Positions 742 to 18,476 of a stretch of 64,000 nt of DNA are shown one piece after another. A program made the translations under genes and the position numbers. The stretch lies in NCBI GenBank assembly GCA_964552945.1, contig CAZKIP010000004.1:25794-89793 (forward strand). The letters run 5' to 3'. This DNA is from an uncultured Methanosarcinales archaeon. Its GTDB lineage: Archaea; Nanobdellota; Nanobdellia; Woesearchaeales; GW2011-AR9. How positions within the stretch are numbered: the first letter of the stretch is position 1; each line of letters opens with the position of its first letter. The notes below the pieces were generated by a model. That model was not told the origin of the DNA, ran no database searches, and saw only the letters and a list, made by a program, of their open reading frames with translations.

Positions 742-3700
742 ATGAAAAGAGGTGTGTTTTTAGTAGTTTTAGTTGTATTTCTCTTAGTTGGAAGTTTGAG
801 TGTTGTTGGTGGTACTGATGGGTTTGGTTGGAAAGTATATGATATGATGTATGCCCGGTATGATGGAGATGGTTGTGATGAAAATCAAATCGCTAAGGCA
901 AAACCTGTTGATGGTTTTGCCCATGGTGAAGGAATTGAAAAATGTTTTTTTAAGAAGGAGAGCGCAATAACTCCCTCGAAGCATGGATGTGTGGTTGGAG
1001 TTTCTGATGATTATGCGAATGGTAATGATTATTGTGCGGGAGGTTATAAGACTGAGGGGGCTTCTTTTGTCACTTCACCTACAAAAATAAAAAATTTTGC
1101 AGGATCAAAATTTTGGGAAGGAAGCGATTTTGGTGATAGTGATGCAAAAACATGTAGTGAGACTTTAATTCACCACCCGGATCCTTACCTATGTCAAAAT
1201 TCTAAATGGACATTGTGTGATTTTGGACAAAGAAATGAATATGTTACTTTGAAGAGTCTTAAAGATGGAGCATTACAATATTACTTCTGTGTTCAGGATA
1301 TTAATGGAGAAATGTCTTGGCAAAAAAAAGAACAATTGAGTAACTTTGATTCTGATGGAGATGGCGTTGCAGATCCTTTTGATTGTAGACCCAATAATAA
1401 AGAAATTTATGGAAAATTTCCTACAGGATGTGATCCTAGTGCTACTACTGGACCAAAAGTTTGTTTAAGTACATCCTCTGCCAAAGAAGTATGTAATAAC
1501 AATGGTCAAGATGATGATTGTGATGCCACAACTAATGATGATTGCGATAAAGATAAAGAAATTTGCCAAGCCTCACCAAATAAATTTTCTTGGATTGATG
1601 GTATTTCTGATAATAACAAGTGTTGCGGTAACAATGGACTTGATGATTTAGGAACTATTTCTTTAGATGGAACAACTCAAGAAAATATCTGTGTAGGCAA
1701 AGATCATGTTGGTGTTGCAAATGATAAAGGAGTAAAGGAAACAATGGGAACAGCATGGACTTCATCATGTGCTGGAGATTGGTGTTGGTTAAAAACAAGT
1801 GGAACTCCTGCTTTCAAAATAATGACCATTAGAACCCCTGAAGAAGACTATGATGTTGTCTCAAATACAAATAAATGGATAGAATGTAGGAAAAACAATC
1901 CTGATCAGAAAGTTCTTCCAACTAGTTTTTTAAATGAACAAAAGAATATAATGAATGCAAATAGATTTTATTGTTATGAAGAGGGAAATAGATGGAGCTG
2001 GGCAGATTGTAGAACTGAAGATATTCCAGATAGTGGAACCAACAATGGGGTAAAAAATAGATTTGAAGGAGATGGGCTGTTTTCTTTACATATTGACGAG
2101 GGGTATTCTACTGATTCTCAAAAGATTATTTTGGTTGAAAATAATCAAGGATTAAAAAATTATTATGGAGAGGGAAGATTATCTTTTGGAGATTATAATG
2201 TTTTAGAATTACACTTGAGATTTACTTCAATTGATTTGTTTAAAAAACCTGAAGTAACATTTGAGATTAGTGCAAAAGATAAACCATATTTGAAAGGAAA
2301 TGCGTTGAGTTATGCTGTTGGAAATTCACAAATAGAAGAAGGAAGGTGGATGAAAATTAGAATTCCTGTATCTGCTTACCCTAAAGTTGAAGCAATTTCT
2401 TTTAGTACTTTACCAAAACATGTTATTGAAGTAAGAAATGTTCGTTTAACAAAAGAAGATAATAGTGACAAAGCAGTTTGTTCAGGACAAGAGAGTGTTT
2501 CTAAAAAAGAAAGTTCTTGGTTGGAAAAAGGATTAGACACAATAAATGGAGAAATTAGTGGAGAAAACATTTGTAATGTCTTGTATGACCCAAATTATAA
2601 ACCTGCAGATTCTGATAAAAAGGTTGACTCTGTCGGAAACGCTTGGCTAGGAGGGGACAATTTTAACAATTTGGGAAAGAACCTTTGTTGTGGAAATACC
2701 GATGAAGAATATTATGCGGGAATGTCTAAGAACGAATATGGTTGTTGGAATTCTGTACCGGTAGAAAATAATCAACCAGTTACAAATGTTGGATATGAAG
2801 TTTCTTATATGAAAAAAGAGAGAGATGATATTAACGTTGGAACTGCAGAAATTACCTCAACAGTATATTTTACAACAAAAGAATACGTTGGATCAAAATA
2901 TCTCTTTTTTTGCTATCCTTCGGTTAATTTCCTGAACCTTGATGGGGACTCAGATAGTTTTGATTGTTCAATAATAAGTTCAAAAATGACCATCTCTAAA
3001 AACACACAGAATACTAATAATGAGGTGTTTAAAATTTCTGAAAAGGAAATTAATGAAAATTCCCTTATGGGGCATTTTGGAGGTTTTGTAAAAAAGATAA
3101 ATATTTATGCAGAAGCAGAAGACGAAACACACCCTGCCCAAATTCATATCAAATATGATATTTATAGTAATGTAGAGGCATTAAAAGATAATGATAAGGT
3201 TCACATAATTAATTATGCATTTCCACTTTCTGATTTGAGCCAGACACACCTATATGAAATAGATCTTGAAAAAAAAATTCTTAATGATAACCCCGAGGAT
3301 AAAAAGATAAAAGTGAAAGAATTTAAGATTACTTCCCAACTCAACCCTCAAGAACATAGTACATTTGGTAATCCTTTAGAAATTAAGGGAGTTCTTTTTT
3401 TTGAAAGTCCTCCTCCTAGTAATCAAGGACAATCTAGTGGAATATATAAAACACAAGTCAATTTTAAGAACAAAGAAAATATAATTCACAAGTTTGGAAA
3501 AAATGAACTTTCTAACCTAAAAGATGTAAAAACAACCAATCCAACAGTTAGTCTTACCGACGCTCCTTCTAATGCACAAATAAACGTAATAAAAACTTAT
3601 TTTTGGAATCCTCTTGGAAAAGATATCAAAAAAAGAGATTTAGGTAAGGAATTTAACCCTTTAAATATTGGAAATTATGATGAGATTCATTTGATTGCAG

Positions 3701-6060
3701 ATATAAATCCTAACGAAGAATTAAATTTGATTACAACAACTCCAAAAAAACCACTAGAAGTAAATAACAAGAAAATAATTAAACCATGCATGTCGGAAAC
3801 TTGTACCTACCCTCTCCCAGGAGAACCACCATATACAATAACTTATGAAGATACAGAGATGTATGATTTATTTTTCGTTGATGAAGAAGGAGAACATAAA
3901 TTAGGAAGAAAAATTACAATTGACCCCAATGTCCCGAATATGGCAGGTAATGCGCCAGGGATTCCTGCACTTCCTCCAACAGATGATGATGCAGGCACAG
4001 GCAAAGGAAAGACTGGAGGGTCATATCAACCAGGAGTACAAAAAATTGAGTCAGGGCCTTTCAACAATCATGGAGTTATTGTAGCAAAAAAGGTTCCTTT
4101 GTCCACAGTTAGAATATATGAAGATAAAGAGAAGGCATTCTATGGGTGTCAAGCACCAGATTATATCACCAATAATGCTTTGGTTAAACCCCATTTTAAA
4201 CAAGCAAACTTCTGCGATTTCCAAGGAGACAAATATTGTTCATATTCTGACAACGGATTAGGTAGCGAATGGAGTACTGAACCCTTAACTAAAGTGGGAT
4301 ACGACCTAAATAAAGGAGATGCTTCCTTCAAAAAAGACGAAAAAGGAAGTCTTATTTTTCCAGTTTTTGACCTTCTAGATTTGAAAGATAAACCATTCCT
4401 TCCAAAAGACAGAGTCCACACAACTTCCGTCCTCCCCGCAAGAAATTTCCTTTCAACAATTCAACCAGCTAAGGAATTGAAAAATTGGGAATTGTTAGGG
4501 GCGCAACCAGGTGCAGTAATATACTCTGATGCAGACGGAACTATAAACCTGTTAGATAAAAATCATTTGAAATCTAATAAAATTCCAGTACCTCAGAAAG
4601 TAGAGTTACATTTTTCTCATGAAGGAACTTGTAAGTCAAAAATAGTTCTTTATAATAAAGATGGAAAAGGTGTAATCAAAACAACTGATAAATTCAATAC
4701 AGGTGATTTTTCTTTATTAACGATTGAATTTTTTAAAGGACCCTGCACAATTAAAAATCCCTTTCTCCAATTAGTGGAAAAAGATGAGGAACCAGTAAAA
4801 TATGAAGAGTTCCAAGAACTGGAAACAGATAGAGCAGGTATCGCCTGCTGTCCAAAAGATTATTGCTGGAATGGATACGCATGTACAGCACCAATGGGAG
4901 AACATACCTTCCTTGCAGAAAAAACAAGTAATGGAAAAACATATCGTTGCTTAGCAGGAGAATGGACAATATCTACCCCTAAAAAAGATTGGAATGAAAA
5001 AGAATTTGGTTTCTGTGAAAAAATAGAGCAATGTTATGTGATGGGTTCCAATGATCCAAATAAAGGAGACTTCCAAGCATGTTTAGATAATAATGGCTAT
5101 GTGGCAGACCATTTCTGTGCAGCGGGTAACTGGACCAGTAGAACTAAATTTTTAGCATCAGCATTACTTGATGCGGTTGATAAAGAGGATTACACTATTT
5201 ATTGTACAGATCCAATCTCTGCTTTCAACATTGTTAAAGATGAAAATAAACCTTTCATCCTTGGAACAGAAAAAACTGTTTCAACTGGTGGAAAAGCTCC
5301 TCTACCTGGTCAAACACCAACCCCACCAAAAAAGATTCACACTTGCTCAAAACAAAGACATCCAAAAATTTCAGAAGAAGAAGACACTTGTATAAACAAT
5401 GTGTGTGTTGTTAGGTATGGTGAAAAAGATGAATTCTCAACAGCTTTTGCCACTACTATGAACAAACCTGGTAATTCAACTGGTTCTTTTTTAACACTTC
5501 TAAAAATTAATCCAACTGATTTAAATGACCTTTGTCAAGGAGAGGATAAAGGATTTGTTAAATGTAAATTGAAAGGGACAGAATTTTGGTACGATCAAAG
5601 AGTAGATGCAATTATTTACAGCGAAGACGGAATTTCTATCAAGAAAGATACTTTAGAAAAGATGTGGGATACTGTTAAAAATTTCTTTGCAAACTTCTTT
5701 GGACAAGGAAATAAGCCTTCCAAAACATCAAAAGAATTTCTTTTGAAAGCGCAGAACTTTAATGAGATATATCTTGCAAAGCAAGGGAAGCAGGAAGTAA
5801 GGGCAGTTAAAGAAGTATTGAACGAGTTAGAGGGAGGAATTACCGTTGAGTATGAGGGCTTTAAAACGCCTCTCTGTCAATATTATGATAAAACAAGGAT
5901 TAAGCATCCTTCTTTCAAAAGTAAAGGCGTTTTTAATACAAAAGATTTCGATTTCAGATGTGTTGATACAAACAAATTAACTACAATACAGGCTAAAACA
6001 AATTTAGATTATATCTTCCCAAATATCACTGCAAATTTGAGAGTGGCCCTAGAAGACTAA
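742..6060 (+). CDS. Giant secreted Cys-rich adhesin-like protein (~1772 aa) with a class III (prepilin-like) N-terminus
   Basis: The tracked ORF starts at TTG 727. The first ATG gives MKRGVFLVVLVVFLLVGSL, i.e. KRG followed by a hydrophobic helix. There are many Cys residues, repeated CCGN motifs, and DSDGDGVADPFDC, a thrombospondin type 3-like Ca-binding motif. No internal TM. Confidence 0.6.
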   Translation: MKRGVFLVVLVVFLLVGSLSVVGGTDGFGWKVYDMMYARYDGDGCDENQIAKAKPVDGFAHGEGIEKCFFKKESAITPSKHGCVVGVSDDYANGNDYCAGGYKTEGASFVTSPTKIKNFAGSKFWEGSDFGDSDAKTCSETLIHHPDPYLCQNSKWTLCDFGQRNEYVTLKSLKDGALQYYFCVQDINGEMSWQKKEQLSNFDSDGDGVADPFDCRPNNKEIYGKFPTGCDPSATTGPKVCLSTSSAKEVCNNNGQDDDCDATTNDDCDKDKEICQASPNKFSWIDGISDNNKCCGNNGLDDLGTISLDGTTQENICVGKDHVGVANDKGVKETMGTAWTSSCAGDWCWLKTSGTPAFKIMTIRTPEEDYDVVSNTNKWIECRKNNPDQKVLPTSFLNEQKNIMNANRFYCYEEGNRWSWADCRTEDIPDSGTNNGVKNRFEGDGLFSLHIDEGYSTDSQKIILVENNQGLKNYYGEGRLSFGDYNVLELHLRFTSIDLFKKPEVTFEISAKDKPYLKGNALSYAVGNSQIEEGRWMKIRIPVSAYPKVEAISFSTLPKHVIEVRNVRLTKEDNSDKAVCSGQESVSKKESSWLEKGLDTINGEISGENICNVLYDPNYKPADSDKKVDSVGNAWLGGDNFNNLGKNLCCGNTDEEYYAGMSKNEYGCWNSVPVENNQPVTNVGYEVSYMKKERDDINVGTAEITSTVYFTTKEYVGSKYLFFCYPSVNFLNLDGDSDSFDCSIISSKMTISKNTQNTNNEVFKISEKEINENSLMGHFGGFVKKINIYAEAEDETHPAQIHIKYDIYSNVEALKDNDKVHIINYAFPLSDLSQTHLYEIDLEKKILNDNPEDKKIKVKEFKITSQLNPQEHSTFGNPLEIKGVLFFESPPPSNQGQSSGIYKTQVNFKNKENIIHKFGKNELSNLKDVKTTNPTVSLTDAPSNAQINVIKTYFWNPLGKDIKKRDLGKEFNPLNIGNYDEIHLIADINPNEELNLITTTPKKPLEVNNKKIIKPCMSETCTYPLPGEPPYTITYEDTEMYDLFFVDEEGEHKLGRKITIDPNVPNMAGNAPGIPALPPTDDDAGTGKGKTGGSYQPGVQKIESGPFNNHGVIVAKKVPLSTVRIYEDKEKAFYGCQAPDYITNNALVKPHFKQANFCDFQGDKYCSYSDNGLGSEWSTEPLTKVGYDLNKGDASFKKDEKGSLIFPVFDLLDLKDKPFLPKDRVHTTSVLPARNFLSTIQPAKELKNWELLGAQPGAVIYSDADGTINLLDKNHLKSNKIPVPQKVELHFSHEGTCKSKIVLYNKDGKGVIKTTDKFNTGDFSLLTIEFFKGPCTIKNPFLQLVEKDEEPVKYEEFQELETDRAGIACCPKDYCWNGYACTAPMGEHTFLAEKTSNGKTYRCLAGEWTISTPKKDWNEKEFGFCEKIEQCYVMGSNDPNKGDFQACLDNNGYVADHFCAAGNWTSRTKFLASALLDAVDKEDYTIYCTDPISAFNIVKDENKPFILGTEKTVSTGGKAPLPGQTPTPPKKIHTCSKQRHPKISEEEDTCINNVCVVRYGEKDEFSTAFATTMNKPGNSTGSFLTLLKINPTDLNDLCQGEDKGFVKCKLKGTEFWYDQRVDAIIYSEDGISIKKDTLEKMWDTVKNFFANFFGQGNKPSKTSKEFLLKAQNFNEIYLAKQGKQEVRAVKEVLNELEGGITVEYEGFKTPLCQYYDKTRIKHPSFKSKGVFNTKDFDFRCVDTNKLTTIQAKTNLDYIFPNITANLRVALED

Positions 6061-6484
6061 ATCCTTCTTTCTTAATGTCTTCTATAAGATAATGCATATT
6101 AAAAGAAACTACTGCGTAATTCTTTTCAAGCAACTCTAAAAAAGTGTCTAGCTCTTTGATATTCTTACAAACCACCTCAGCTATGAAATCCCATCCATTG
6201 TTTGTTTTCTGTAAGGTATTTACATTATTGTGATGTTGCAAAAATAGAAGTAATCTATTTTTGTTTTCATTATCAACTTTCAAAAATACTTGAGCTCTGG
6301 CCCTGTAACCCATTTCATCGAAATTTAAAACAACCGTGTTTTTCTTAATTACACTATTTTGCAGCCCTTTCAGTAAATCGAAGAGGGTTGAAATTGGTAT
6401 GTGCGTTTTTTTGCTGATGGAAGTTAGTTTTGCGCGTGAATTTCTTCGCAAACATTCCAACAATAGCAAGGATTTTTCTTTCAT
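6026..6484 (-). CDS. Lrp/AsnC family transcriptional regulator
   Basis: 152 aa with an N-terminal HTH (LLLLECLRRNSRAKLTSISKKTHIPISTLFDLLKGLQ) and a C-terminal RAM-like domain. Its 3' end overlaps the giant gene convergently. Confidence 0.7.
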   Translation of the reverse strand: MKEKSLLLLECLRRNSRAKLTSISKKTHIPISTLFDLLKGLQNSVIKKNTVVLNFDEMGYRARAQVFLKVDNENKNRLLLFLQHHNNVNTLQKTNNGWDFIAEVVCKNIKELDTFLELLEKNYAVVSFNMHYLIEDIKKEGFSLLGPLSNLQ

Positions 6485-6581
6485 TTCTTTACCTTGCAGG
6501 AGTAACTATAAAAAGAAATATTTAAAAGTTCCGGCCACTTTTTTGAACAAAAAGCAACAACCTTCCTTAATTTATTACAAT

Positions 6582-7550
6582 ATGTTCAAGATAGACAAAT
6601 ATGATAGGAAAATCCTGTACGAACTAGATAAAAATGGCCGTGCTACCCTTACAGAGATAGCAAAAAAAATCAATAAGTCAAAATCCTTTGTTCTTTATCG
6701 TATTGATAAGATGAAAGAAAGCGGTTTCTACTTGCATGACATAGTTATTTACGACGTTTCTAAGTTAGGATATCAAACATATTATCTGTATCTAAGGGTG
6801 GTGGATCATACTGCTAAAAAGGAAGCCGAATTAATCAATTATCTTAAGAGTAAGCCAGAGGTTTATAGTATTCAGAGAATTATTGGAAAATATCAACTTT
6901 ATATCTCTATAATTGCTGAAGATGTCCTTTTGCTTGAAAGTATACTTCTGGAATTGGTAGAAAATTTTGAAAAGGTGGTTGTTGGATATCGGATTTTGCT
7001 TCTTTATAGTGCCAATTCCCCTTCCCATCATTACTTGTTTAAAGATTATCCCTGGATAGATAAAGATACTTCTATTTATGGAGCCGACCCTATTCCTGTA
7101 CTTCCAAAAGAAAGAGAATTTCTAAAAGTTCTTTCTGAGCACCCAAGGGGGTCTTTTAGTATGATTGCCAAAGAAATGGGAAGCAGTTTACCTAAAGTAA
7201 GAGACATGTATAAAGACTTGGTTAAAAGAAAAATTATTATTGCAATTCGTCCTTCATTGGAACCAAGGGTGATTGGTTTTTTGGATAAACATATCACCAT
7301 AAAAATGAAGTTTAAAGGATTGTTGAAATTGAAGGAGATTAAGAATTATCTAATGGGGTTGAAATCTACAAAATTTATTTCTTATACTTTTGGAAATTAT
7401 GATTTAACGGGAGCATTTGTTTTTGAAGACTTAGAAGAATTTAAGAATTTTCAAAGCGGCGTATTCAATCATTTTGGAGATTCGATAAATTTTATTGATT
7501 TCCACGATTACTTTGAAGAAATTAAATATCACCACTTTAAACGAGAGTAA
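6582..7550 (+). CDS. Tandem Lrp/AsnC-type HTH regulator with two AsnC-like modules
   Basis: The tracked ORF starts at 6336, but its first 82 codons overlap the opposite-strand Lrp gene. The in-frame ATG at 6582 gives MFKIDKYDRKILYELDKNGRATLTEIAKKINKSKSFVLYRIDKMKESG, a classic AsnC HTH. A second HTH-like segment is EREFLKVLSEHPRGSFSMIAKEMGSSLPKVRDMYKDLVKRKII. Confidence 0.6.
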   Translation: MFKIDKYDRKILYELDKNGRATLTEIAKKINKSKSFVLYRIDKMKESGFYLHDIVIYDVSKLGYQTYYLYLRVVDHTAKKEAELINYLKSKPEVYSIQRIIGKYQLYISIIAEDVLLLESILLELVENFEKVVVGYRILLLYSANSPSHHYLFKDYPWIDKDTSIYGADPIPVLPKEREFLKVLSEHPRGSFSMIAKEMGSSLPKVRDMYKDLVKRKIIIAIRPSLEPRVIGFLDKHITIKMKFKGLLKLKEIKNYLMGLKSTKFISYTFGNYDLTGAFVFEDLEEFKNFQSGVFNHFGDSINFIDFHDYFEEIKYHHFKRE

Positions 7551-7559
7551 ATTTATAAG
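7550..7559 (+). promoter_or_regulatory. Candidate TATA box
   Basis: aatttataag lies ~25-30 nt upstream of ATG 7583. Confidence 0.35.
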
Positions 7560-9937: not shown

Positions 9938-11245
9938 TTATTCTTTTTCTAATTTGACATAATCAAAAGTACACTTAGAATTAGAATTACTTTGACAGGT
10001 AAGGTGGACTTTTGTAGGGATCTCTTTTGGAATACACTTTGTTTCAAATCCTTTTGAAGAATTATCAACAAAATAAGTAACTAAAGAACCTTTTTCAACT
10101 CTGAATTTAGTAGTTTGATATTTTGTTAAAGGACCCTCACACCCATTCACTATTTTTTCGCAAGTCTCATTTGAATTTCCGCAAAAGAATGTTTCTGATT
10201 TTGGAATGTAACCAAATGAAACTCCACCTTTGTCACTTGCAACACCTACTCTTACTTTTACTCCTTTATTACTATCAACTTTCCATCTAGCTTCGAATAC
10301 ATAAGTACCATTGCCCAATGTAACTTGTTTTTTGCTTTCTAAGAAACAAGAACCTTTACCATTAACAATTAAGTTTAATTTACCTTCTTCAAAATCATAA
10401 CCTGCTTTACTTCCACATGGTTTCTCTTCCCACCTACCATCCAACTCCTCGCCACTAAAGTCATCGCAAAACAACTCGTCCCCAGAACAACTAAATACCT
10501 CGTCCTTAATCTCTTTACAATTTGCATTCAAAGCATCGTAAGTGTCTTCATCAAAAATGTTCTTAGCCAAACCTCTCTGAACCAACAAAGGCATACCCAA
10601 AGGATTCGCAGGTGTTAACGAAAACCATTTCTTATTTGCAGGCAAATCATCCAATAATCCATGCTCCATCAACCAATCAATTTTATCATAAAAATATTTT
10701 ATCTTCCCCGTTGGATCAAAATAAGAAATTAACTCTACACTTAACTCGCGACCTTTAATTAAAGTTTCAGTAGTATAAATCCCATTACAAATATATTCGT
10801 TCCCAGAAGTCCATTTTAACAAATCATAAACAACTCCTTGAGAATCTTGGTCAAACAAAGTTACTCCCGGAGATGCTTGAACTACCAACTTCTTCTTCCC
10901 AGTTAAAGGAAAAGCCATTACATTATCATACTTTTTAGCAAGAGGAAAAACGGCCATGCCTCCTTTTTCAGAAAGATAAATATCTCCTTTCCTCCATTGA
11001 TATAAAGTTACATCAACACCGGCTTGAGGAGTTCCAGAATCATCAACAACTTCAAGTTCCTGCTCTCCAGAAAAAACTAAACCAGCGGAATCTGTTGTTC
11101 CTTGCAAAATTTTCATCTCTAAATTTTGTTCAACTTCTACAGAAGCATCTGGTTCAACGAACTCATCGGGTTCAGAAGTACCGCAAGCTGGCAAAGCTAC
11201 GCATAATGATAAAAGTCCTCTGAGTAATTTACTTTCCAAACCCAT
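9938..11245 (-). CDS. Secreted protein / putative lipoprotein, function unknown
   Basis: 435 aa. N-terminus MGLESKLLRGLLSLCVALPACG, a signal peptide with a lipobox-like Cys. Lies on the opposite strand inside the surface island. Confidence 0.5.
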   Translation of the reverse strand: MGLESKLLRGLLSLCVALPACGTSEPDEFVEPDASVEVEQNLEMKILQGTTDSAGLVFSGEQELEVVDDSGTPQAGVDVTLYQWRKGDIYLSEKGGMAVFPLAKKYDNVMAFPLTGKKKLVVQASPGVTLFDQDSQGVVYDLLKWTSGNEYICNGIYTTETLIKGRELSVELISYFDPTGKIKYFYDKIDWLMEHGLLDDLPANKKWFSLTPANPLGMPLLVQRGLAKNIFDEDTYDALNANCKEIKDEVFSCSGDELFCDDFSGEELDGRWEEKPCGSKAGYDFEEGKLNLIVNGKGSCFLESKKQVTLGNGTYVFEARWKVDSNKGVKVRVGVASDKGGVSFGYIPKSETFFCGNSNETCEKIVNGCEGPLTKYQTTKFRVEKGSLVTYFVDNSSKGFETKCIPKEIPTKVHLTCQSNSNSKCTFDYVKLEKE

Positions 11246-11319
11246 GGAGAGATAAAAAGGGCCATTTTTTAAAAGACTATCTAAGAAAAGTTTTTATATC
11301 TCGGCAACTTGATTTTAAT

Positions 11320-11997
11320 ATGAAAAAAATAATGGTGTTAGTGTTCTTCCTATTAGCAACCTCAGTAGTAGCACAAGTTTGCTTCTTAGAAAATGAAAGT
11401 TCTTATTATTGTCAAGAAATGGACAAAACTAAAGCCCAATCGATTTGTGAAGACGAATGCCAAATAAAAGAAACTCATTGCTCAACACTTCCAGAATGTC
11501 AACCTGTCTTTTGTCAAGATAATTGTAAAATCACTTTCAAAGGAGTCTGTGCAAAAGAAGTTCCTGCGGGAGAAGAAGCCAATTGTGTTGCACCAATAAA
11601 ACAAGAAGTTAAAGAAGTAAAAGAAGATTCATCAAACTCAGGACTATATTTCGTCATTTTTTTACTAGCGTTAATGGGGGGCATTTTCTGGTTTTTCAAA
11701 AAGCATCATGGAAATAGGACTGCTCAACAACCTCAAGGAGATAGCTGGGCTTCAACAATTATTCCAGAGTCAGAAGAAAGGCTTAATTGGTTAAAAAAAC
11801 AATTTGGAAAAAAGATGAAAAAGAAAAAAAGAGGACAAATTCTTTTCGAATTGGGGATTCCTTTGGACAACAAAACCCATGTTTCAAAATTAAGTAGGAT
11901 GATTAGGGCTCACGAGAATAAAAAGGATAAGAAAAAAGGAAAAACTTTTCATAATTTGGAAAAAATGGCTAGAGACAAATATTTTGGCAAAAAATAG
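11320..11997 (+). CDS. Membrane-anchored Cys-rich protein, paralogous to the N-terminal module of the 2140-aa giant
   Basis: Sec-type signal MKKIMVLVFFLLATSVVAQ. The Cys module CFLENESSYYCQEMDK...ECQ...PECQPVFCQDNCK aligns with CFLYKKASKGVYC...ECKDDC...PECKQVFCDLDC of the next gene. One TM (LYFVIFLLALMGGIFWFF) and a basic cytoplasmic tail. Confidence 0.55.
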   Translation: MKKIMVLVFFLLATSVVAQVCFLENESSYYCQEMDKTKAQSICEDECQIKETHCSTLPECQPVFCQDNCKITFKGVCAKEVPAGEEANCVAPIKQEVKEVKEDSSNSGLYFVIFLLALMGGIFWFFKKHHGNRTAQQPQGDSWASTIIPESEERLNWLKKQFGKKMKKKKRGQILFELGIPLDNKTHVSKLSRMIRAHENKKDKKKGKTFHNLEKMARDKYFGKK

Positions 11998-12015: not shown

Positions 12016-12027
12016 ATATTTATAAAC
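12016..12027 (+). promoter_or_regulatory. Candidate TATA box
   Basis: atatttataaac lies ~28 nt upstream of ATG 12054. Confidence 0.35.
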
Positions 12028-12053
12028 GTTAAAGGTTTCTTTTAAGGCTGTAG

Positions 12054-15000
12054 ATGAATAAACAAAAAAGAGGGATGTTTATAGTAGTTTTTAGTATATT
12101 TTTATTAGTTCTAGCTATATCAGTTTCTGCGGAAGAAAGTGGATGTTTTCTTTACAAAAAGGCCAGCAAAGGAGTGTATTGTACTTCCGGTATTTTGAAA
12201 TCTGTGGCTGTGAAGGAATGTAAAGATGATTGTGATATTACTAAAGATTTCCAAGAAGGAAAATTATGTAACCTCTTTCCAGAATGTAAACAAGTTTTCT
12301 GTGATTTAGATTGTCTTGAGAAACCCTTGGGTCTTTGTCAAGAAGAAGGAGGTAAAGAACTTTCAGATGACCAATACCAAAGTCAATGTGAAGCGGTTTG
12401 TTGTGTAGAAAAATATCCTAATGTGGACCAACTTGTGTGTAATTATCCTATGACAGAACAGGCATGTAAGGATAAAATAAAAATAAAACCAGGGATTTAT
12501 ACCCCCTACCATATTGCGGGAGGAAGTGAGGAAGATAAAGCAGCCAAATGTCAAATTGATTATTGTAAGGAAAAATTGGCTGAGGGTTCTCTCGAAGGAG
12601 TAATCAAGGATGTAGATGGGCCAGTTTCAGCAACAATTTCTTTAATTGGGAAAGATAAAACAGATTCTTTAGCAGATGGAAAATATTCCTTTCCAAAACT
12701 TGATCCAGGAACATATCCTGTTGAGGTTAGCAAGGAAGGTTATCAAACTGCTCAAGCAACAATTTCTATAGGGATTGGGGAAAAAAAGTCTTACGATTTT
12801 ACTTTAAATAAATTAATTATTGGTGCCATAGTTTCTGGAGTGGTTAAAGATGCTCAAGGACAACTTGTTGATGGTGCTACAGTTCTTTGGAAAGGGACTT
12901 CAATTACAGGGTCAACAACCACTTCTGCAGGAGGTAAGTTTTCTGCAAATTTACCAGAAGGGAAGTTTACTTTTACGGCTAATAAAGTTGGTTTTGAACA
13001 AGGTAGCAAGGAACTTGCGGTAATAAAAGGCACAAATAAAATAGAATTGATTTTAACGGGAACTCCAAAAACAATTTTGTCAGGAACGGCATTTTTAGAT
13101 AAGAATTCTGATAACAATTTGGATGCAAATGAAAAAACACCGGCGGTACAAATTTTTATTGATGGGAAACTTAGAGCAAGTTCACAATATGAACCTTTGG
13201 CAACTTATAGCATCGTTATGGATTTACAGAAAGATGAAGAACAACATTCCATTTCAGCAACTTATCTGAATGGTGAGTATGTTTTTGGACCAAAATCTTT
13301 TAAAATTACTAAAGCAGGTTTACAATATGATGTTCTTCTAAAAAAACTTGTAGGAGTATGTACGGCCGATGGTACCGATCCACAAAAAAAGGTTGATACT
13401 CTTAATTTAAATCATCTCCCTGGAGAGATAGGAGTTAAGCTTTCTTGGATAAAACCTTGTCCAGAAGTTGAAGGGTATGAAGTTGAAAGGAAAGGAGCAG
13501 AGGGGAAAACTAAAAAATTCATCTTTAATGGAGCAGAGAACTCTTATGTTGATAAGGAAGGATTAGAGTGGTTAGAAACTTATGAATATAAAATAAGGGC
13601 AGTTTACAAAGATGGAGGAATAAAATATTCAGATTATTCTCCTTCAAAATCAATCAAATTGGGTCAAAAGGAATGTGAAGGAAGGTACCTAAAAGATTGG
13701 GAAACTTTTTGTGAACCACATGCTCCTTACCAAGCAAATCAAATTTATACTTGTAGTAACAACAACGTTATTATTCCTGCTAAAAACTGTCCTCCGGGAT
13801 TGTTATGTGCACCATCAAACGATCCAAGAAAAGCAACTTGTATGGGCACAGATGCCTGTTTTGCTGACTTAGGACTTTTTGGACTACAAAGTACTGCCAA
13901 TCAATGTTATGGGATTAAAGATAAAGGAGATTCTCCTAAAAACTTCTGTTACTATGACCAAACTCATACGATTGTAGACTCTTGTAAAGTATGTTTAGAA
14001 TTGGAAAGTTGTTTTGATTACAAGAGTAAGGGGGCGTGTGAAATAAACAATTGTTTAACAAAACCTTGTGAATGGGTAGATGCAGCTTCAAACAAAGAAG
14101 TTCTTGACTATAGTCAAATTTTCAAAGGCTATGATAAAGATTCTTTGCTAACTACTAAGGAAACGGGCGCAGGGTATTGTATCGAAGAAAAATACGATAA
14201 CGATGATAAATGTTCTTTATGTAGTTCTTCAGCATCTCTTTTGGAAAATTTTTATTGTACTGCTGAAGTATGTACTGGTTTAGGAAGATGTTTCTCTAAT
14301 CCTCCTTATTTGGGAAAAGGGGCTTTATCTTCATGTAATGAATGTGGAGAAAGTCCTGCGAAAAATACAAATTGTTATACTTATGGAAGTAAATTGGAAT
14401 GTGAAGGAGAATCTCCTGTAAACATGGATATTAAGGGAAAGATTATTCCTTCTGCTGACAATTGTAATTGGGGAACTTGCAGATGGATAGGTAACAATAA
14501 AGATGGAAAGTGTGTTAAGGATGCGGATGTTGACAAACAAGTTACCGATGATTGTCAAGGTTTTAAAGGAGCAGACAAGGATTTATGTAAGAGCGACAAC
14601 ACTCCTCCAAAAACTTCCATTGTGGGAGATTTTACTTTTACGGTTTCTTCTGTGAACACCAATGTAACTTTAGAAGGAGATGAAAGTATTAACAAAAAGG
14701 GATGGCAAGGAAATCATTTGGGAGTGGCAGGAATTTGTTTAACCAGTGCTAGTTCTGACAAATGTTTGATGGAAAATTTTGTTAAAAAGCCTTATCCTGG
14801 TTTAAAATTTAAGGAAGAAGTTACTTTAAATCTTTATGAACAGTTGAAAGATAAAAAAATAGATGGAGAAATTTATCTCTTAAAATATTTCTCACAAGAC
14901 AGGTATTTCAACCAAGAAAATGTTCAAGAAGCGCAGATTTATGTTGATAACGTCCCTCCAGAATTTACAATTAAATCCACAAAAAAGACCCTTGGTGATA

Positions 15001-18000
15001 CGACTGATTTAAGTGTGTTTTTAGAAGATCTTAGCGAAGCAATGTCTTGTGACTTTGAACTAACTCCTCTACTGCCTTTGGGAACTAAAGTGAATAAAGC
15101 TGTTTCCATTACTGAACAAAAAATGGTTTCATTCCCTGGGTTAAAAGTGGTTAGGGCGGATGTAAAGGTTACTTGTAAAGATTCTTTGGGTAATGAAAAT
15201 AGTAAAAATAAAACATTTGTTTTTGATTTAGAAAAGAGAATAGAAATCTTATCACCAGAACTTGAGAGCATTCTTAGTAAAACCACTTTAACATTTGAAG
15301 TTAAGACCACTATAGATGCAACTTGTTCTTTATTCAATCAAGCTAAGAATCAGAAAGTTGCTGATTTCAAAGCTTCTTCAGATTTAAAAATTCACAAAAC
15401 AGATGCAATCCCTGGTTTCATTGAAGGTGATTATTCCGCTTCTCACAAAGTAATTTGCACAGACGTTGTTACTCAAGGAACTATGGAAGATTTCTTTAAT
15501 TTTAGGGTTGATTTCACTCCACCAAACACAGAAATTATTTTGAAAGAGGGTAAAAGGGTTGAGAAACCAGTGAAGTATGGATGGGAAGAATTTTTTGTTA
15601 AAGATGTGGAAGTAACCCTCTCTTGTAAGGCAGATGGCTTTTCTTGTGAAAAAAGATTTTATTGTTTAGGAAAAGGATGTGGACTAAAGTCCACGGGGAA
15701 ATTCGTAGAGTATACCGCTCCCTTTAAAGTAGATAAAACAACGAGTATCTGCTATTTCTCAAAAGATAAATCGGGGAATGAAGTTGTTCAGCCCTTCTGT
15801 GGAAAAATTATTGTTGAAGGTTATGGTTTAATTTTGGAAAGTCCTCCAATTAAAATGTTCGAAGATGAAATATGGGGAATAAGTAACAAACCACAATTTG
15901 AATTAAGGTTTACAACAAAAGTTTCTTCAAAAATATGTAAGTTAGGGTTGAGTGAAGGGTTTGATTACGATAAAGTTGATTTAGATAGAGTTTTGGAAGG
16001 GAAGGGAGGAAAATATATTTTTCCCAATTTCCCTAGCGGTTCCCTTGGTGCTTACCCCGAAAAAGGAGGAGTAAAAACCTTATATGTTGTTTGCGAAGCA
16101 GGTGATGGAGGGCTTAGTCCTGAACATGTCGTTCATATAGAGTATGACCCCTCTGCGCCAGAAATAATTGATCAAGGAGCTGAACCAAATAAAATTTTGA
16201 AAGAAAAAACAACTCGTTTATTTGCAACTACTGATGATAAAACCTTTTGCAGATATAGTGATAATTCTGCTGGAGATGGAAGTAGCGATTATTTAACAAT
16301 GGAATATTCGTTTCCAGGACAAGATAAAAATACTTTGTTCAAGAAACATGAGCAACATTACTCTATTTCATTTGTAGGTCTGAAGAAAGATTATTTGTTT
16401 AATGTTCAATGTAAAAATGGGGCAGACGATTTTTCAAAAGTTGAAGAGATTAAATTCGAAGTTGATTACACGGAAGAAAGTAAAAATGATGAAAAAAATG
16501 ATGATGGGACAGATAAAGTTACTGAAGGTTTTATCCTTAAAGCATCTCCTCAAGGAGGATATCTTCAAGGAACTTCCGCAAACTTATTTGTAGAAACCAG
16601 TAAAAATGCAATTTGTAGATATAAGCTAGGTAGCGAATACCAAAACTTTAATGTTACCGGAGAAAAAATTCATACTTCCACTTTGTTAAGCTTACCAGAT
16701 AAGGATTATCTAATCCCAGTAAGTTGCATAATGGGAAAGAAGACCGCTACAGCTTTACTTTCTTTTACCATAGACACAACTGCTCCAAGTGTGATCTCAG
16801 TAGAGGATGGGAATTATACTTGTGGAAGTAAGGAATGGTCAGTGATGGTGGAAACAAGCGATAACAATATTTCTGGTTATTATTACGAAATTTATGATAA
16901 TGGATTAATTCCTAGCGTTGCTTACAAAAAGATTTATGGTGAACAAAAATCAACTCAACTTGGAAGCGGGTATACGGGATACTATTCAATTTATGAAACT
17001 TTTTCAGAAAAGAATTATTCAAAGTTTTTAACAAATAAAAGTAAAGAAATTCAGAAGGGGGTCGTTTACAACAAATCTGTTGGTCCAACTTTGCCCTTAT
17101 CTATTCCAGTTTCAGAATTTAAAGAAGACCACATTTATTATACTAAAGTTTGGACATGGGATGCGGTCAAAAACCAAGGAAATCCTAAAGAGAGTGATGG
17201 TATTGCGGTTGTGCAAGAAAACTCTTCATTTTGTGTAACCACGAAAGAAAATAATGTGGCTCCAAAAGTAGATTATGTGGTTAATGATTCAAGTTGTTTG
17301 AAAACGGTAGTTAAATTGAAATGTTCTAGTCCAACTGGATGTAAGAGTATTGAGTATGGCATTTCTACTGCTTCATCAGAATGTCAAGCAAATAAATCTT
17401 ACAATGGAAAAAATTTGCTTATTAAAGGAAAGAAATGGGTTTGTTACACTGCTTCTGATTATACGGGAATTAATGTGAGTGGCAAAAAGTTGTTTACTTA
17501 TGTTGATCAGGATGGAGACAGTGTTAGAGACAAAAAAACTTGTGATCTTTGTTTAAAGACACCTGCTGGAAAAATAGTTGGTAACGATGGTTGTTCATTA
17601 GAACAGTTGACAGATGAAGAAGCTGGAAAAGACGAAGATAAAGATGGTTTGCCAGATTCTTGGGAAAAATTAAGATCTCGAGAAGGGTGCTTGTTAAGTC
17701 CGTTCAGTAAAGATTCAGATGGTGACGGAGTAGATGATGCAACTCAAGATTATGATGATGATGGAAGGAGTAATCTGCAAGAATACTACGCTGGTACAGA
17801 TCCTTGTGTAAAAGACGATGACTTTTTCAGTGATGATCTTTACAAATTTGATGAAGAAGAAGATGAAAAGAAAGTTGATGACAAAAAGAAGGACGATAAG
17901 AAAAAACCAACTACGGGAGTTTCAACTACAAAAGAAAAGGAAGAAGAATCTATCCTAGCTTTAATATTGATGTTAATAGGTCTTCTACTTATCCTTGGTG

Positions 18001-18476
18001 GAACTGGTTATTTAGTTTATTATTACTTATATTCTCCGCAGTCTAAAAAAGGAGAAACAGGGTTTGTAAGAACGGAACCAACAAAACAAGCGGTACAAAA
18101 ACCAGCAACTTTCAAAGAGAAATTCTTCGCTTGGAAGAAAAAAGACACTATTGAGAAATCTAAAGAGAAAAAGAGAAAATCGTTGTTTGGACAATTTTCA
18201 AAGTCTTCTTCAAGCATTCCTCCATTAGAAAAAGCTTTGAAGGGGAAAGGTTCTGACTTATCTCGTTTAGGTAACTTAGCACAACATTATTCCGAACATA
18301 AGGAGGAAATTAGGCCTGGGTTAAGGAAAGAAGAGAAAAATGTTTTTTCTAAATTGGACAAGATAGCTGGAAAAACAAAGGATAAAAAAATCCATGAAGT
18401 TGTTAGTAAGGATGAAGCAAAAGATATTTTTGGAAAGTTGAAAGATATCAGCAAAAAGAGAAAGAAAAGAAAATGA
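12054..18476 (+). CDS. Giant cell-surface protein (2140 aa) with a class III-like N-terminus, CarboxypepD_reg-like and FN3-like repeats, Ca-binding DxDxDG motifs, and a C-terminal TM plus Lys-rich tail
   Basis: N-terminus MNKQKRGMFIVVFSIFLLVLAISVSA. Two GVIKDVDGP...GKYSF...GTYPVEV-type repeats, and FN3-like LSWIKPCPEVEGYEVERK...YEYKIRAVY. DSDGDGVDDATQDYDDDG near the C-terminus. TM ILALILMLIGLLLILGGTGYLVYYYLY is followed by a ~170-aa K-rich tail. Confidence 0.65.
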   Translation: MNKQKRGMFIVVFSIFLLVLAISVSAEESGCFLYKKASKGVYCTSGILKSVAVKECKDDCDITKDFQEGKLCNLFPECKQVFCDLDCLEKPLGLCQEEGGKELSDDQYQSQCEAVCCVEKYPNVDQLVCNYPMTEQACKDKIKIKPGIYTPYHIAGGSEEDKAAKCQIDYCKEKLAEGSLEGVIKDVDGPVSATISLIGKDKTDSLADGKYSFPKLDPGTYPVEVSKEGYQTAQATISIGIGEKKSYDFTLNKLIIGAIVSGVVKDAQGQLVDGATVLWKGTSITGSTTTSAGGKFSANLPEGKFTFTANKVGFEQGSKELAVIKGTNKIELILTGTPKTILSGTAFLDKNSDNNLDANEKTPAVQIFIDGKLRASSQYEPLATYSIVMDLQKDEEQHSISATYLNGEYVFGPKSFKITKAGLQYDVLLKKLVGVCTADGTDPQKKVDTLNLNHLPGEIGVKLSWIKPCPEVEGYEVERKGAEGKTKKFIFNGAENSYVDKEGLEWLETYEYKIRAVYKDGGIKYSDYSPSKSIKLGQKECEGRYLKDWETFCEPHAPYQANQIYTCSNNNVIIPAKNCPPGLLCAPSNDPRKATCMGTDACFADLGLFGLQSTANQCYGIKDKGDSPKNFCYYDQTHTIVDSCKVCLELESCFDYKSKGACEINNCLTKPCEWVDAASNKEVLDYSQIFKGYDKDSLLTTKETGAGYCIEEKYDNDDKCSLCSSSASLLENFYCTAEVCTGLGRCFSNPPYLGKGALSSCNECGESPAKNTNCYTYGSKLECEGESPVNMDIKGKIIPSADNCNWGTCRWIGNNKDGKCVKDADVDKQVTDDCQGFKGADKDLCKSDNTPPKTSIVGDFTFTVSSVNTNVTLEGDESINKKGWQGNHLGVAGICLTSASSDKCLMENFVKKPYPGLKFKEEVTLNLYEQLKDKKIDGEIYLLKYFSQDRYFNQENVQEAQIYVDNVPPEFTIKSTKKTLGDTTDLSVFLEDLSEAMSCDFELTPLLPLGTKVNKAVSITEQKMVSFPGLKVVRADVKVTCKDSLGNENSKNKTFVFDLEKRIEILSPELESILSKTTLTFEVKTTIDATCSLFNQAKNQKVADFKASSDLKIHKTDAIPGFIEGDYSASHKVICTDVVTQGTMEDFFNFRVDFTPPNTEIILKEGKRVEKPVKYGWEEFFVKDVEVTLSCKADGFSCEKRFYCLGKGCGLKSTGKFVEYTAPFKVDKTTSICYFSKDKSGNEVVQPFCGKIIVEGYGLILESPPIKMFEDEIWGISNKPQFELRFTTKVSSKICKLGLSEGFDYDKVDLDRVLEGKGGKYIFPNFPSGSLGAYPEKGGVKTLYVVCEAGDGGLSPEHVVHIEYDPSAPEIIDQGAEPNKILKEKTTRLFATTDDKTFCRYSDNSAGDGSSDYLTMEYSFPGQDKNTLFKKHEQHYSISFVGLKKDYLFNVQCKNGADDFSKVEEIKFEVDYTEESKNDEKNDDGTDKVTEGFILKASPQGGYLQGTSANLFVETSKNAICRYKLGSEYQNFNVTGEKIHTSTLLSLPDKDYLIPVSCIMGKKTATALLSFTIDTTAPSVISVEDGNYTCGSKEWSVMVETSDNNISGYYYEIYDNGLIPSVAYKKIYGEQKSTQLGSGYTGYYSIYETFSEKNYSKFLTNKSKEIQKGVVYNKSVGPTLPLSIPVSEFKEDHIYYTKVWTWDAVKNQGNPKESDGIAVVQENSSFCVTTKENNVAPKVDYVVNDSSCLKTVVKLKCSSPTGCKSIEYGISTASSECQANKSYNGKNLLIKGKKWVCYTASDYTGINVSGKKLFTYVDQDGDSVRDKKTCDLCLKTPAGKIVGNDGCSLEQLTDEEAGKDEDKDGLPDSWEKLRSREGCLLSPFSKDSDGDGVDDATQDYDDDGRSNLQEYYAGTDPCVKDDDFFSDDLYKFDEEEDEKKVDDKKKDDKKKPTTGVSTTKEKEEESILALILMLIGLLLILGGTGYLVYYYLYSPQSKKGETGFVRTEPTKQAVQKPATFKEKFFAWKKKDTIEKSKEKKRKSLFGQFSKSSSSIPPLEKALKGKGSDLSRLGNLAQHYSEHKEEIRPGLRKEEKNVFSKLDKIAGKTKDKKIHEVVSKDEAKDIFGKLKDISKKRKKRK

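What the first reader, a model, noticed from the sequence alone, without database searches (positions are those of the whole stretch)
742..18476. Three giant Cys-rich, Ca-binding adhesin-like proteins, each with a pilin-like N-terminus, directly upstream of the pilin array
The proteins at 742..6060 (~1772 aa), 7583..9937 (784 aa) and 12054..18476 (2140 aa) all start with a KRG/KKRGQ + hydrophobic-helix N-terminus (MKRGVFLVVLVVFLLVG, MKKRGQITIFIILGATIFLV, MNKQKRGMFIVVFSIFLLVLAIS). They may therefore be processed like prepilins and incorporated into, or displayed on, the same filament as tip or side adhesins. They contain thrombospondin-type-3-like DxDxDG Ca-binding motifs (DSDGDGVADPFDC, DSDGDGVDD...DYDDDG), recurring CCGN[NT] Cys motifs, FN3-like repeats and carboxypeptidase-regulatory-like repeats. 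Together with the pilin array this forms a ~27-kb surface-appendage island. In a small-genome, AT-rich archaeon this is a plausible host- or substrate-attachment apparatus.
Basis: partly seen in the sequence, partly recalled or inferred. Interest (0 to 1): 0.85.

Follow-up and report, generated by a model that had tools for sequence, protein, structure and literature searches.

The report
Conserved DPANN surface cluster; one giant pilin
Three giant cysteine-rich surface proteins do sit next to a pilin array, in a gene order kept across dozens of Woesearchaeota-type genomes, but only the 784-aa protein is clearly pilin-like. The other two look like an ordinary secreted protein and a membrane-anchored protein.

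Summary
ORFs 742-6060 (P1, 1772 aa), 7583-9937 (P2, 784 aa) and 12054-18476 (P3, 2140 aa) are real, and they carry 54, 28 and 78 Cys. They lie upstream of 14 pilin-like ORFs (18473-27919). The order P1-P2-(small Cys-rich TM protein)-P3-pilin1..6 recurs in about 40 species-level Woesearchaeota/Nanoarchaeota genomes. The claim of a pilin-like N-terminus in all three holds only for P2. About 170 P2 homologues examined (120 database hits plus 53 locus ORFs, overlapping sets) keep a near-invariant [G/A/S]-Q-I-T-I-F start after a leader of 3 to about 50 residues, apart from N-terminally truncated entries and one locus ORF containing Ns. Its AlphaFold model (pLDDT 88) has a 73-residue N-terminal helix followed by Ig/cadherin-like domains. 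P1 and P3 keep K-R-G only in closer relatives; distant orthologues lose the Gly, and three P1 orthologues have lipoboxes instead. P3's signal region aligns with that of a paralogue carrying a plain Sec signal. P3 also has a conserved C-terminal TM helix and a cytoplasmic tail of about 150 aa, so it is a type I membrane protein, not a filament subunit. TSP_3 membership is not supported by Pfam; the DxDxDG motifs are conserved; CarboxypepD_reg is solid. No assembly ATPase, platform protein or peptidase lies in the window. I read this as a new variant of archaeal type-IV-filament loci with large accessory proteins. Function remains inferred.

The parts
742..6060 (+). P1: 1772-aa secreted Cys-rich giant protein of a dark-matter family. 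It has a Sec-like signal (MKRG + 13 hydrophobic + SLSVVGG), one DxDxDG motif, two CCGN motifs and a conserved C-terminal motif (..FWPQLTGKLRV in orthologues).
   Evidence: ORF. No Pfam or NCBIfam hit in the protein or in 12 family members, and no PDB sequence hit. The family has 717 representatives at 50% identity, of which 134 score E<=1e-30, mostly 1300-1900 aa with the match at the C-terminus. N- and C-terminal conservation. Structure prediction of the C-terminal 833 aa failed (pLDDT 46).
6026..6484 (-). Lrp/AsnC-type regulator, inserted between P1 and P2 in this genome
   Evidence: Pfam AsnC_trans_reg and HTH_IclR. Absent from most related loci, where P1 and P2 are adjacent.
6582..7550 (+). 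AsnC-type HTH regulator (322-324 aa; Pfam shows HTH_24/HTH_AsnC-type at residues 6-51 plus only weak HTH matches near 183-221)
   Evidence: Pfam HTH_24 1.6e-15 and HTH_AsnC-type 3.7e-13. Gene call in L001/L002. One other locus (L020) has a homologue after P2.
7583..9937 (+). P2: 784-aa modular pilin-like protein. It has a class III signal (MKKRG|QITIFIILG), an N-terminal helix, an alpha/beta head, tandem Ig/cadherin-like domains and a C-terminal domain with 22 Cys.
9938..11245 (-). 435-aa Cys-rich exported protein with a lipobox-like LPAC|G, on the opposite strand; a recurrent neighbour of P2
   Evidence: Sequence; 14 Cys. Homologues follow P2 on the minus strand in L018, L019, L029, L035, L039, L048 and L050.
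11320..11997 (+). sCys: 225-aa paralogue of the two ends of P3. It has a plain Sec signal, the GCF... Cys-rich module, a TM helix and a Lys-rich cytoplasmic tail.
   Evidence: BLASTP to the P3 N-terminus: 36% over 89 aa, E 3e-7, with signal regions in register. TM at 108-126. Orthologues (189-436 aa, mostly 16 Cys) sit between P2 and P3 in many loci.
12054..18476 (+). P3: 2140-aa type I membrane giant protein. It has a Sec-like signal (..AISVSA|EESGCF), an N-terminal Cys-rich module, 3 CarboxypepD_reg-like repeats, an fn3-like domain, a Cys-rich region, repeated beta-sandwich modules, an invariant DxDxDG cluster, a TM helix at 1967-1985 and a 155-aa cytoplasmic tail ending DIFGKLKDISKKRKKRK.
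   Evidence: Pfam; hhalign repeats; TM. 22-sequence alignment with 44% mean column identity and most Cys invariant. Cys count 78-80, TM and tail conserved in nearly all of 31 orthologues, all but the most divergent few. PDB profile hits only NOMO2/carboxypeptidase TTR-like domains. The stop codon overlaps the start of the next gene (ATGA).
18473..27919 (+). Array of 14 pilin-like ORFs (92-412 aa), each with K-K/R-G/A plus a 20-27 residue hydrophobic N-terminus, tightly packed or overlapping. There is also a possible 41-codon mini-pilin ORF at 21871-21996.
   Evidence: Translations; motif enrichment 15/22 inside against 1/39 outside. pl1-pl6 have one-to-one orthologues in the same order in related loci, and pl6-pl14 in L078. 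No Pfam pilin family hits. Mini-ORF.

Best explanation
The block 742-27919 is a conserved surface-appendage module of Woesearchaeales-type DPANN archaea, associated with a type IV filament (TFF). The three giant proteins play three different roles. (1) P2 is a true class III signal (prepilin-type) protein, a modular pilin. After cleavage at G|Q, its hydrophobic N-terminal helix would insert into the filament core alongside the 14 smaller pilin-like proteins. Its bulky ectodomain of about 700 aa (alpha/beta head, Ig/cadherin-like domains, disulfide-rich end domain) would be displayed, most plausibly at the tip, because so large a head is hard to fit in a filament shaft. (2) P1 is exported by Sec (as a lipoprotein in some lineages). 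It is a non-pilin partner that could dock onto the pilin complex or the envelope, in a PilY1-like logic but without detectable homology. (3) P3 is a type I membrane protein, translationally coupled to the first pilin gene. It has a giant disulfide-rich ectodomain with DxDxDG (Ca2+-type) motifs next to the membrane, and a conserved cytoplasmic tail that it shares with the small paralogue sCys. It most likely forms an envelope-anchored or S-layer-like scaffold at or around the filament base. Shown: gene order, family conservation, the signal-type evidence, the P2 fold, and P3 topology from sequence. Inferred: filament incorporation, tip location, Ca binding, adhesion or host attachment, and any physical contact between P1 or P3 and the filament.
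For: Synteny: P1-P2-(sCys)-P3-pl1..pl6 recur in the same order and strand in 5 metagenome contigs and in about 40 GTDB species genomes. The P3 stop overlaps the pl1 start. P2 class III signal: [GAS]-Q-[IV]-T-[IV]-F is present in all N-terminally complete entries among 120 database homologues and in 52/53 locus ORFs, after leaders of 3 to about 50 aa. pl2-pl4 use the same G/A|Q junction. P2 model: pLDDT 88.4, helix 3-75, then beta-rich domains; Ig/cadherin/SiiE-like matches. P1 and P3 as Sec substrates: [KR][GA] is present in only 17/26 and 25/32 orthologues; lipoboxes occur in L038, L041 and L062 P1; the uncharged run has a median of about 20 residues against 26 (P2) and 24 (pl1). The P3 and sCys signal regions and GC[FY] modules align. 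P3 topology: the C-terminal TM, a tail of about 150 aa ending EAKDIFSKLKxISKKRK, and 78-80 Cys are conserved in nearly all of 31 orthologues, all but the most divergent few. Precedent: Makarova et al. 2016 (PMC4858521) predicted the same combination for Thermoproteales T4P loci, namely a large C-terminal-TM S-layer-like protein, a large signal-peptide adhesin, many minor pilins and conserved cysteines. A 2026 preprint reports large Ig-rich adhesin-like proteins in several archaeal TFF systems.
Against: No TFF ATPase, platform protein or prepilin peptidase lies in the 64-kb window or in the flanks of related loci, so the link to an assembly machine is assumed. None of the 15 pilin-like proteins hits a Pfam or NCBIfam pilin model. 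K-R-G is kept in most P1 and P3 orthologues but is rare in sCys (3/18). That is more conservation than a Sec n-region normally needs, so prepilin-peptidase recognition of P1 or P3 in this sub-clade is not excluded. My simple (-3,-1) rule did not separate the families. I had no dedicated signal-peptide predictor. The P1 structure prediction failed, so the PilY1-like role rests on analogy only.
Confidence: 0.6

Rival explanations
1. One reading: all three giant proteins are prepilins cleaved after KRG and incorporated into, or displayed on, the same filament as tip or side adhesins.
For: All three window proteins start with K-R-G plus a hydrophobic stretch. KRG is kept in most P1 and P3 orthologues (17/26 and 25/32) but is rare in the neighbouring Sec-type sCys family (3/18). 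Array pilins tolerate hydrophobic +1 residues, for example pl1, pl6 and pl10.
Against: The Gly is lost in distant orthologues of both families, and three P1 orthologues carry lipoboxes. P3 has a conserved C-terminal TM and cytoplasmic tail. The P3 signal aligns with a plain Sec signal of a paralogue, and the conserved domain begins 2-6 aa after the hydrophobic stretch, which leaves no pilin-type amphipathic helix. The hydrophobic runs are shorter than in the true pilins.
Confidence: 0.1
2. P1 and P3 are general cell-envelope proteins (S-layer or sheath) of these archaea. They are co-located and co-regulated with the pilin genes but are not physically part of the appendage. Only P2 and the array belong to the filament.
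For: P3 has an S-layer-like layout: signal peptide, long beta-sandwich ectodomain and a C-terminal TM anchor. It gives a partial hit to an S-layer glycoprotein model (NF052345, 40 bits). The Cys pattern is highly conserved, as expected of a structural lattice. P1, P2, sCys and P3 each have their own TATA-like box. Makarova 2016 calls the analogous large TM protein 'S-layer-like'.
Against: The NCBIfam hit is far below its cutoff (1400 bits) and covers only the TTR-like repeats. A conserved 150-aa cytoplasmic tail shared with sCys is unusual for S-layer proteins. The P3 stop overlaps the first pilin's start, and the fixed gene order across about 40 species argues for a functional unit.
Confidence: 0.22
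3. The pilin-like array does not build an external pilus. It builds a short pseudopilus or bindosome-like envelope structure whose job is to export, anchor or present P1 and other Cys-rich proteins.
For: The array has 14 different, individually orthologous pilin-like proteins with no obvious tandemly duplicated major pilin. No Pfam pilin family matches. Class III signals on non-filament proteins are known in archaea (Szabo 2007, cited in PMC4858521).
Against: No secretion-specific components were identified. Short candidates for a major pilin exist: pl5 (116 aa), pl6 (103 aa), pl9 (92 aa) and a 41-codon ORF. This cannot be discriminated with the tools I had.
Confidence: 0.08

Closest known systems
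Thermoproteales (Pyrobaculum/Thermoproteus) type IV pilus loci of ATPase clade 4G, as predicted by Makarova, Koonin & Albers 2016 (PMC4858521)
   Same: Two large proteins, one with a C-terminal TM ('S-layer-like') and one with a signal peptide ('adhesin or minor pilin'). Many diverse small minor pilins. Conserved cysteines in almost all components. The 2026 TFF census also notes large Ig-rich adhesin-like proteins there.
   Different: No detectable sequence relationship was shown. The cluster here lacks an adjacent ATPase, platform protein or MinD. It adds a third large protein that is itself a pilin (P2), and a small paralogue of P3. It occurs in DPANN rather than Thermoproteota.
Bacterial modular type IV pilins (e.g. 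Streptococcus sanguinis PilB/PilC) and large tip minor (pseudo)pilins such as GspK (from my own knowledge, not tested here)
   Same: A pilin N-terminal module (class III signal plus a hydrophobic helix) is fused to large extra domains that are displayed on the filament. P2 has exactly this layout.
   Different: P2 is archaeal and much larger (784-1100 aa). It has no E5 and has unrelated Ig-like and Cys-rich domains. No homology was shown, and filament incorporation has not been tested.
PilY1 with the minor-pilin tip complex of bacterial T4aP, and the DUF2341 'PilY-like' large proteins of the Methanococcus Epd / archaeal system 1 loci
   Same: A large non-pilin, Sec-exported protein with a Ca-type motif is encoded beside a set of minor pilins. 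P1 fits this logic. An 11-gene Epd cluster with several essential minor pilins parallels the 14-gene array.
   Different: P1 has no Pfam hit of any kind, including PilY1 and DUF2341 models. The beta-propeller fold could not be assessed because the model failed.
NOMO/carboxypeptidase-regulatory (transthyretin-like) repeat surface proteins
   Same: P3 residues 178-440 are three CarboxypepD_reg-like repeats.
   Different: This covers only about 12% of P3. The remaining 1700 aa or so have no relatives in Pfam or PDB beyond weak Ig-like hits.

Membership tests
Archaeal type IV pilin-like proteins (class III signal peptide substrates) | A basic leader ending in G/A at -1, directly followed by a hydrophobic segment of about 20 or more residues, with the junction conserved among orthologues | tested here: met
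   P2 only. [GAS]-Q-[IV]-T-[IV]-F is present in all N-terminally complete entries among 120 homologues and in 52/53 locus ORFs, despite leaders of 3 to about 50 aa. The median uncharged run is 26 residues.
Archaeal type IV pilin-like proteins (class III signal peptide substrates) | The same junction conserved in the P1 and P3 families | tested here: not met
   [KR][GA] is present in 17/26 P1 and 25/32 P3 orthologues. Distant members have KK-F, KR-S, KR-V or KR-D, or lipoboxes (SGC, SSC, HSC). The window proteins themselves do carry KRG.
Archaeal type IV pilin-like proteins (class III signal peptide substrates) | A long N-terminal alpha-helix leading into a globular domain, with no other membrane anchor | tested here: met
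   P2: AF2 helix 3-75 at pLDDT 88 overall, and a single N-terminal hydrophobic segment. P3 fails this feature because it has a C-terminal TM at 1967-1985 plus a tail. P1 was not assessable.
Archaeal type IV pilin-like proteins (class III signal peptide substrates) | Cleavage by a prepilin peptidase (PibD/FlaK/EppA) and assembly by a TFF ATPase and platform protein | not testable with these tools
   No peptidase, ATPase or platform gene lies in the window or in the fetched flanks. The rest of the genome was not available.
Archaeal type IV pilin-like proteins (class III signal peptide substrates) | A match to curated pilin/archaellin models (Pfam, NCBIfam) | tested here: not met
   No pilin family hit for P1, P2, P3 or any array ORF.
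Thrombospondin type 3 repeat (Pfam TSP_3 / TSP3_bac) Ca-binding repeats | A significant match to the repeat HMM | tested here: not met
   No hit in P1 or P3, either whole or as excised D-rich segments at E<=1. TSP3_bac hits in 2/22 P3 orthologues at E 0.005. Only the small pilin at 24398-24676 hits TSP_3 (E 9e-5, 22.5 bits, below the 25-bit cutoff).
Thrombospondin type 3 repeat (Pfam TSP_3 / TSP3_bac) Ca-binding repeats | Conserved DxDxDG-type acidic loops | tested here: met
   P3 D1818/1820/1822, D1860/1862/1864/1868, D1887/1895 and D1899/1901/1903 are invariant in 22 orthologues. The cluster lies about 100 aa before the TM in nearly all orthologues. P1 has one conserved motif. Ca binding itself is untested.
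CarboxypepD_reg (PF13620) transthyretin-like domain | An HMM match above the gathering score | tested here: met
   P3: 82.5 bits against a cutoff of 32.3, with 2 stretches; 22/22 orthologues; a third divergent repeat by hhalign at 95-97% probability.
Fibronectin type III (PF00041) | An HMM match above the gathering score | tested here: inconclusive
   P3 461-529: 17.5 bits against a cutoff of 25. 8/22 orthologues hit, best E 2e-6. PDB FN3con E 0.0012.
PilY1 / DUF2341-type pilus tip adhesins | Sequence or fold similarity to the PilY1 C-terminal propeller or to DUF2341 | tested here: not met
   No Pfam hit in P1 or in 12 family members. The fold is not assessable (pLDDT 46).
S-layer glycoproteins | A match to a curated S-layer model above its cutoff, and high abundance | tested here: not met
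   P3 against NF052345: 40 bits, cutoff 1400, over the TTR-like repeats only. Abundance cannot be tested here.

The most novel reading that the evidence does not exclude
The cluster encodes a previously undescribed, order-wide DPANN attachment organelle. In this reading, a filament built from more than 14 dedicated pilin-like proteins carries an 800-aa modular tip pilin (P2). It works together with a 1700-aa secreted dark-matter protein (P1) and a 2100-aa membrane-spanning protein (P3) whose conserved cytoplasmic tail, shared with sCys, couples the outside structure to a cytoplasmic partner. Together these would form the host-contact apparatus of Woesearchaeales.
Probability: 0.3. Interest if true: 0.8.

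Novelty: new variant of a known kind. Interest (0 to 1): 0.55.

Why it matters
Woesearchaeales-type DPANN archaea are abundant, uncultivated and presumed to depend on hosts, and how they attach to anything is unknown. This work defines a cluster of about 27 kb, roughly 20 genes, that keeps its order across dozens of species. It also sorts the three giant proteins into testable roles: one modular pilin, one secreted partner and one membrane-anchored scaffold with a cytoplasmic tail. All three families (P1, P2 and most of P3) lack any curated annotation, even though P1 alone has about 700 cluster representatives. They are concrete targets for cryo-ET, metaproteomics and AF-multimer work on DPANN-host contact. 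The result also corrects an over-reading: a KRG-plus-hydrophobic N-terminus alone does not identify a prepilin.

Tried and rejected
1. AlphaFold of the conserved C-terminal 833 aa of P1 with 12 sequences gave pLDDT 46. I judged it unusable and did not send it to fold search. 2. The Foldseek afdb50 library was unavailable. 3. Pfam on excised segments of P1, P2 and P3 at E<=1 added only a weak Big_3_3 hit. TSP_3 membership is rejected. 4. PDB sequence and profile searches found only TTR-like and fn3 pieces of P3, and nothing for P1. 5. The sigma-70 promoter and terminator scan equals the shuffled expectation and does not apply to archaea. 6. My crude (-3,-1) SPase I rule did not discriminate families: it fired on 41/54 P2 sequences too. 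I do not use it as evidence. 7. A FlaFind-type pattern recalled from memory would pass P2 but fail several obvious array pilins, so I did not rely on it. 8. A regex search for the 41-codon mini-pilin in other loci found nothing, but most loci end before that position. 9. BLASTP of P2's Cys-rich end domain against P1 found no significant shared module. 10. Four literature searches found no description of this Woesearchaeales cluster.

Full report
**Context.** The window is archaeal: it has an archaeal RNase P RNA at 63529-63867. It has about 34% GC. Its proteins find relatives only in MAGs labelled Woesearchaeota, Nanoarchaeota or Nanoarchaeia. The same sequence occurs in several public assemblies.

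**1. Observation.**
- The three ORFs exist as described.
- P1's ORF opens at TTG 727. ATG 742 (MKRG...) agrees with all orthologue starts and lies 26-33 nt downstream of a TTTATAAATA box.
- Cys counts are 54, 28 and 78. Every extracytoplasmic protein of the block has an even Cys count.
- The quoted DxDxDG and CCGN motifs are present.
- Pfam supports CarboxypepD_reg strongly in P3 (E 2.8e-23) and fn3 weakly (E 0.005). It gives no significant match for P1 or P2; the only P2 hits are chance-level (E about 0.07-0.1, far below cutoff).
- TSP_3 is not detected in P1 or P3, even on excised segments.
- Downstream, 14 consecutive ORFs (18473-27919) carry K-K/R-G/A followed by 20-27 hydrophobic residues.
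- The motif is found in 15/22 ORFs of the block, against 1/39 elsewhere in the window.

**2. Conservation of the locus.**
- Five further metagenomic contigs that encode P2 homologues show the same order. A protein of 1600-1800 aa comes first, then the P2 homologue, a small Cys-rich TM protein, a CarboxypepD_reg protein of 2000-2130 aa, and then ORFs of about 180, 370, 160 and 170-195 aa.
- BLASTP shows these are one-to-one orthologues of P1, P2, sCys (11320-11997), P3 and pl1-pl4.
- A scan of one genome per GTDB species with the P2 profile returned 80 loci.
- Wherever the contig is long enough (about 40 loci), the order P1-P2-(sCys)-P3-pl1...pl6 holds. L078 shows pl6-pl14.
- The P3 stop overlaps the pl1 start (ATGA at 18473-18476).
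- The two Lrp/AsnC regulators between P1 and P2 are specific to this genome.
The block is a conserved unit, not a variable island.

**3. Which proteins are pilin-like?**

*P2.*
- All N-terminally complete entries among 120 database homologues, and 52/53 locus ORFs, have [G/A/S]-Q-[I/V]-T-[I/V]-F-[I/M]-I-[L/V]-G after a basic leader of 3 to about 50 residues.
- That is the pattern expected of a class III signal: the leader is free to vary while the cleavage junction and mature N-terminus are fixed.
- pl2-pl4 share the G/A|Q junction.
- The AF2 model built from 73 sequences has pLDDT 88.4 and pTM 0.70.
- It shows a helix over residues 3-75, an alpha/beta region to about 330, beta-sandwich domains over about 340-565, and a C-terminal domain with 22 Cys.

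*P3.*
- KKRG is present in 25/32 orthologues but absent from distant ones (KK-F, KR-S, KK-T, KR-D).
- The hydrophobic run is followed within 2-6 residues by the conserved module GC[Y/F]xY.
- That module, and the signal region in front of it, align with the small paralogue sCys (36% over 89 aa, E 3e-7). The signals of sCys orthologues are plain Sec type: only 3/18 have [KR][GA].
- P3 also has a C-terminal TM helix (1967-1985) and a tail of about 150 aa ending EAKDIFSKLKxISKKRK. Both are conserved in nearly all of 31 orthologues, all but the most divergent few, and 78-80 Cys are kept in most of them.
- P3 is therefore a type I membrane protein.

*P1.*
- KKRG is present in 17/26 orthologues. Others have no Gly, and three have lipoboxes.
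- The family keeps a C-terminal ..FWPQLTGKLRV motif and has no TM.
- P1 is best read as Sec-exported.

*Caveat.* KRG is much better conserved in P1 and P3 than in sCys. I cannot exclude that the class III peptidase also recognises them in this sub-clade. No signal-peptide predictor was available, and my simple (-3,-1) rule was not discriminating.

**4. Other anatomy.**
- P3 has three TTR-like repeats at 178-440, and the modules at 966-1153 and 1366-1574 are related to each other (hhalign).
- Orthologues add fn3, Big_3_3 and Big_13 hits.
- Four DxDxD(G) loops just outside the membrane are invariant.
- A PDB profile search recognises only the TTR-like part (NOMO2, 1.2e-17).
- P1 is complete dark matter: no Pfam hit in 12 members and no PDB hit.
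- The P1 family is nonetheless large. It has 717 representatives at 50% identity with E<=1e-3, of which 134 score E<=1e-30. Architecture is uniform.
- The P1 structure prediction failed (pLDDT 46).
- No TFF ATPase, platform protein or peptidase is present in the window.

**5. Mechanism (inferred).**
- P2 is a modular pilin that displays a large adhesin-like ectodomain on a filament built from the array pilins, probably at the tip.
- P1 is a secreted, non-pilin partner.
- P3, with sCys, is an envelope-anchored scaffold co-expressed with the pilins. It has Ca-type loops near the membrane and a conserved cytoplasmic tail.
- Rivals are listed with confidences. The main one is that P1 and P3 are general envelope or S-layer proteins.

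**6. Comparison and novelty.**
- Makarova et al. 2016 predicted the same combination in Thermoproteales clade 4G loci: a large C-terminal-TM 'S-layer-like' protein, a large signal-peptide 'adhesin or minor pilin', many minor pilins and conserved cysteines. They also predicted PilY-like large proteins in the Methanococcus-type system.
- A 2026 preprint generalises large Ig-rich adhesin-like proteins to several archaeal TFF systems.
- I found no description of this Woesearchaeales cluster or of the P1, P2 and P3 families.
- It is therefore a new variant of a known kind.
- It is interesting as a well-defined, order-wide target in DPANN biology, but it is not categorically new, and its function is untested.

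Noticed in passing
window 21871-21996 (+): A 41-codon ORF, MVFSKKAQLITKEALLITLAIILFLLVFYLVVVEPFISIGI, lies between pilin-like ORFs 6 and 7. It consists of a class III-type junction (KKA|Q) and a hydrophobic helix only, so it may be a mini-pilin. Standard gene calling would miss it.
   Followed up: partly
window 18012-18476 (P3 tail) and 11700-11997 (sCys tail): P3 and its small paralogue share a Lys-rich cytoplasmic tail that ends in a conserved [DN][IV]F[SEG]KL[KR]x[IL]SKKRK-type motif, present twice in P3. The tail is conserved in nearly all P3 orthologues (26 of 31), which suggests an unknown cytoplasmic binding partner or membrane-binding amphipathic helix.
   Followed up: partly
window 9938-11245 (-): A 435-aa Cys-rich protein has a lipobox-like N-terminus (LPAC|G). 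Homologues recur on the opposite strand right after P2 in at least seven other genomes. It gives no Pfam hit.
   Followed up: partly
window 24398-24676 (+): A 92-aa pilin-like protein has a tiny ectodomain carrying the only (sub-threshold) Pfam TSP_3 hit of the locus (DTDKDGVANYLDKCPCD; E 9e-5, 22.5 bits against a 25-bit cutoff).
   Followed up: no
loci L008-L087 (record titles): Many GTDB-representative MAGs that carry this typically Woesearchaeota/Nanoarchaeota cluster are titled 'uncultured Methanosarcinales archaeon' in their TPA records. This is probably a placeholder or a taxonomic mislabel.
   Followed up: no
window 29581-29991 (+): A cold-shock-domain protein has a long C-terminal (P/E/A)-rich tandem repeat (AEEAP/AEETP, about 14 copies).
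   Followed up: no
window 46881-48068 (+): A Mur ligase family protein (Mur_ligase_M and Mur_ligase_C) is encoded in an archaeon. This is of interest for cell-wall (pseudomurein-like or other) chemistry in DPANN.
   Followed up: no
window 709-716, 7552-7558, 11291-11299, 12018-12024: TTTATAA-type boxes lie 22-36 nt upstream of the ATGs of P1, P2, sCys and P3. This is compatible with separate promoters and leaderless or short-leader mRNAs. In a genome with 66% AT it could be chance.
   Followed up: no
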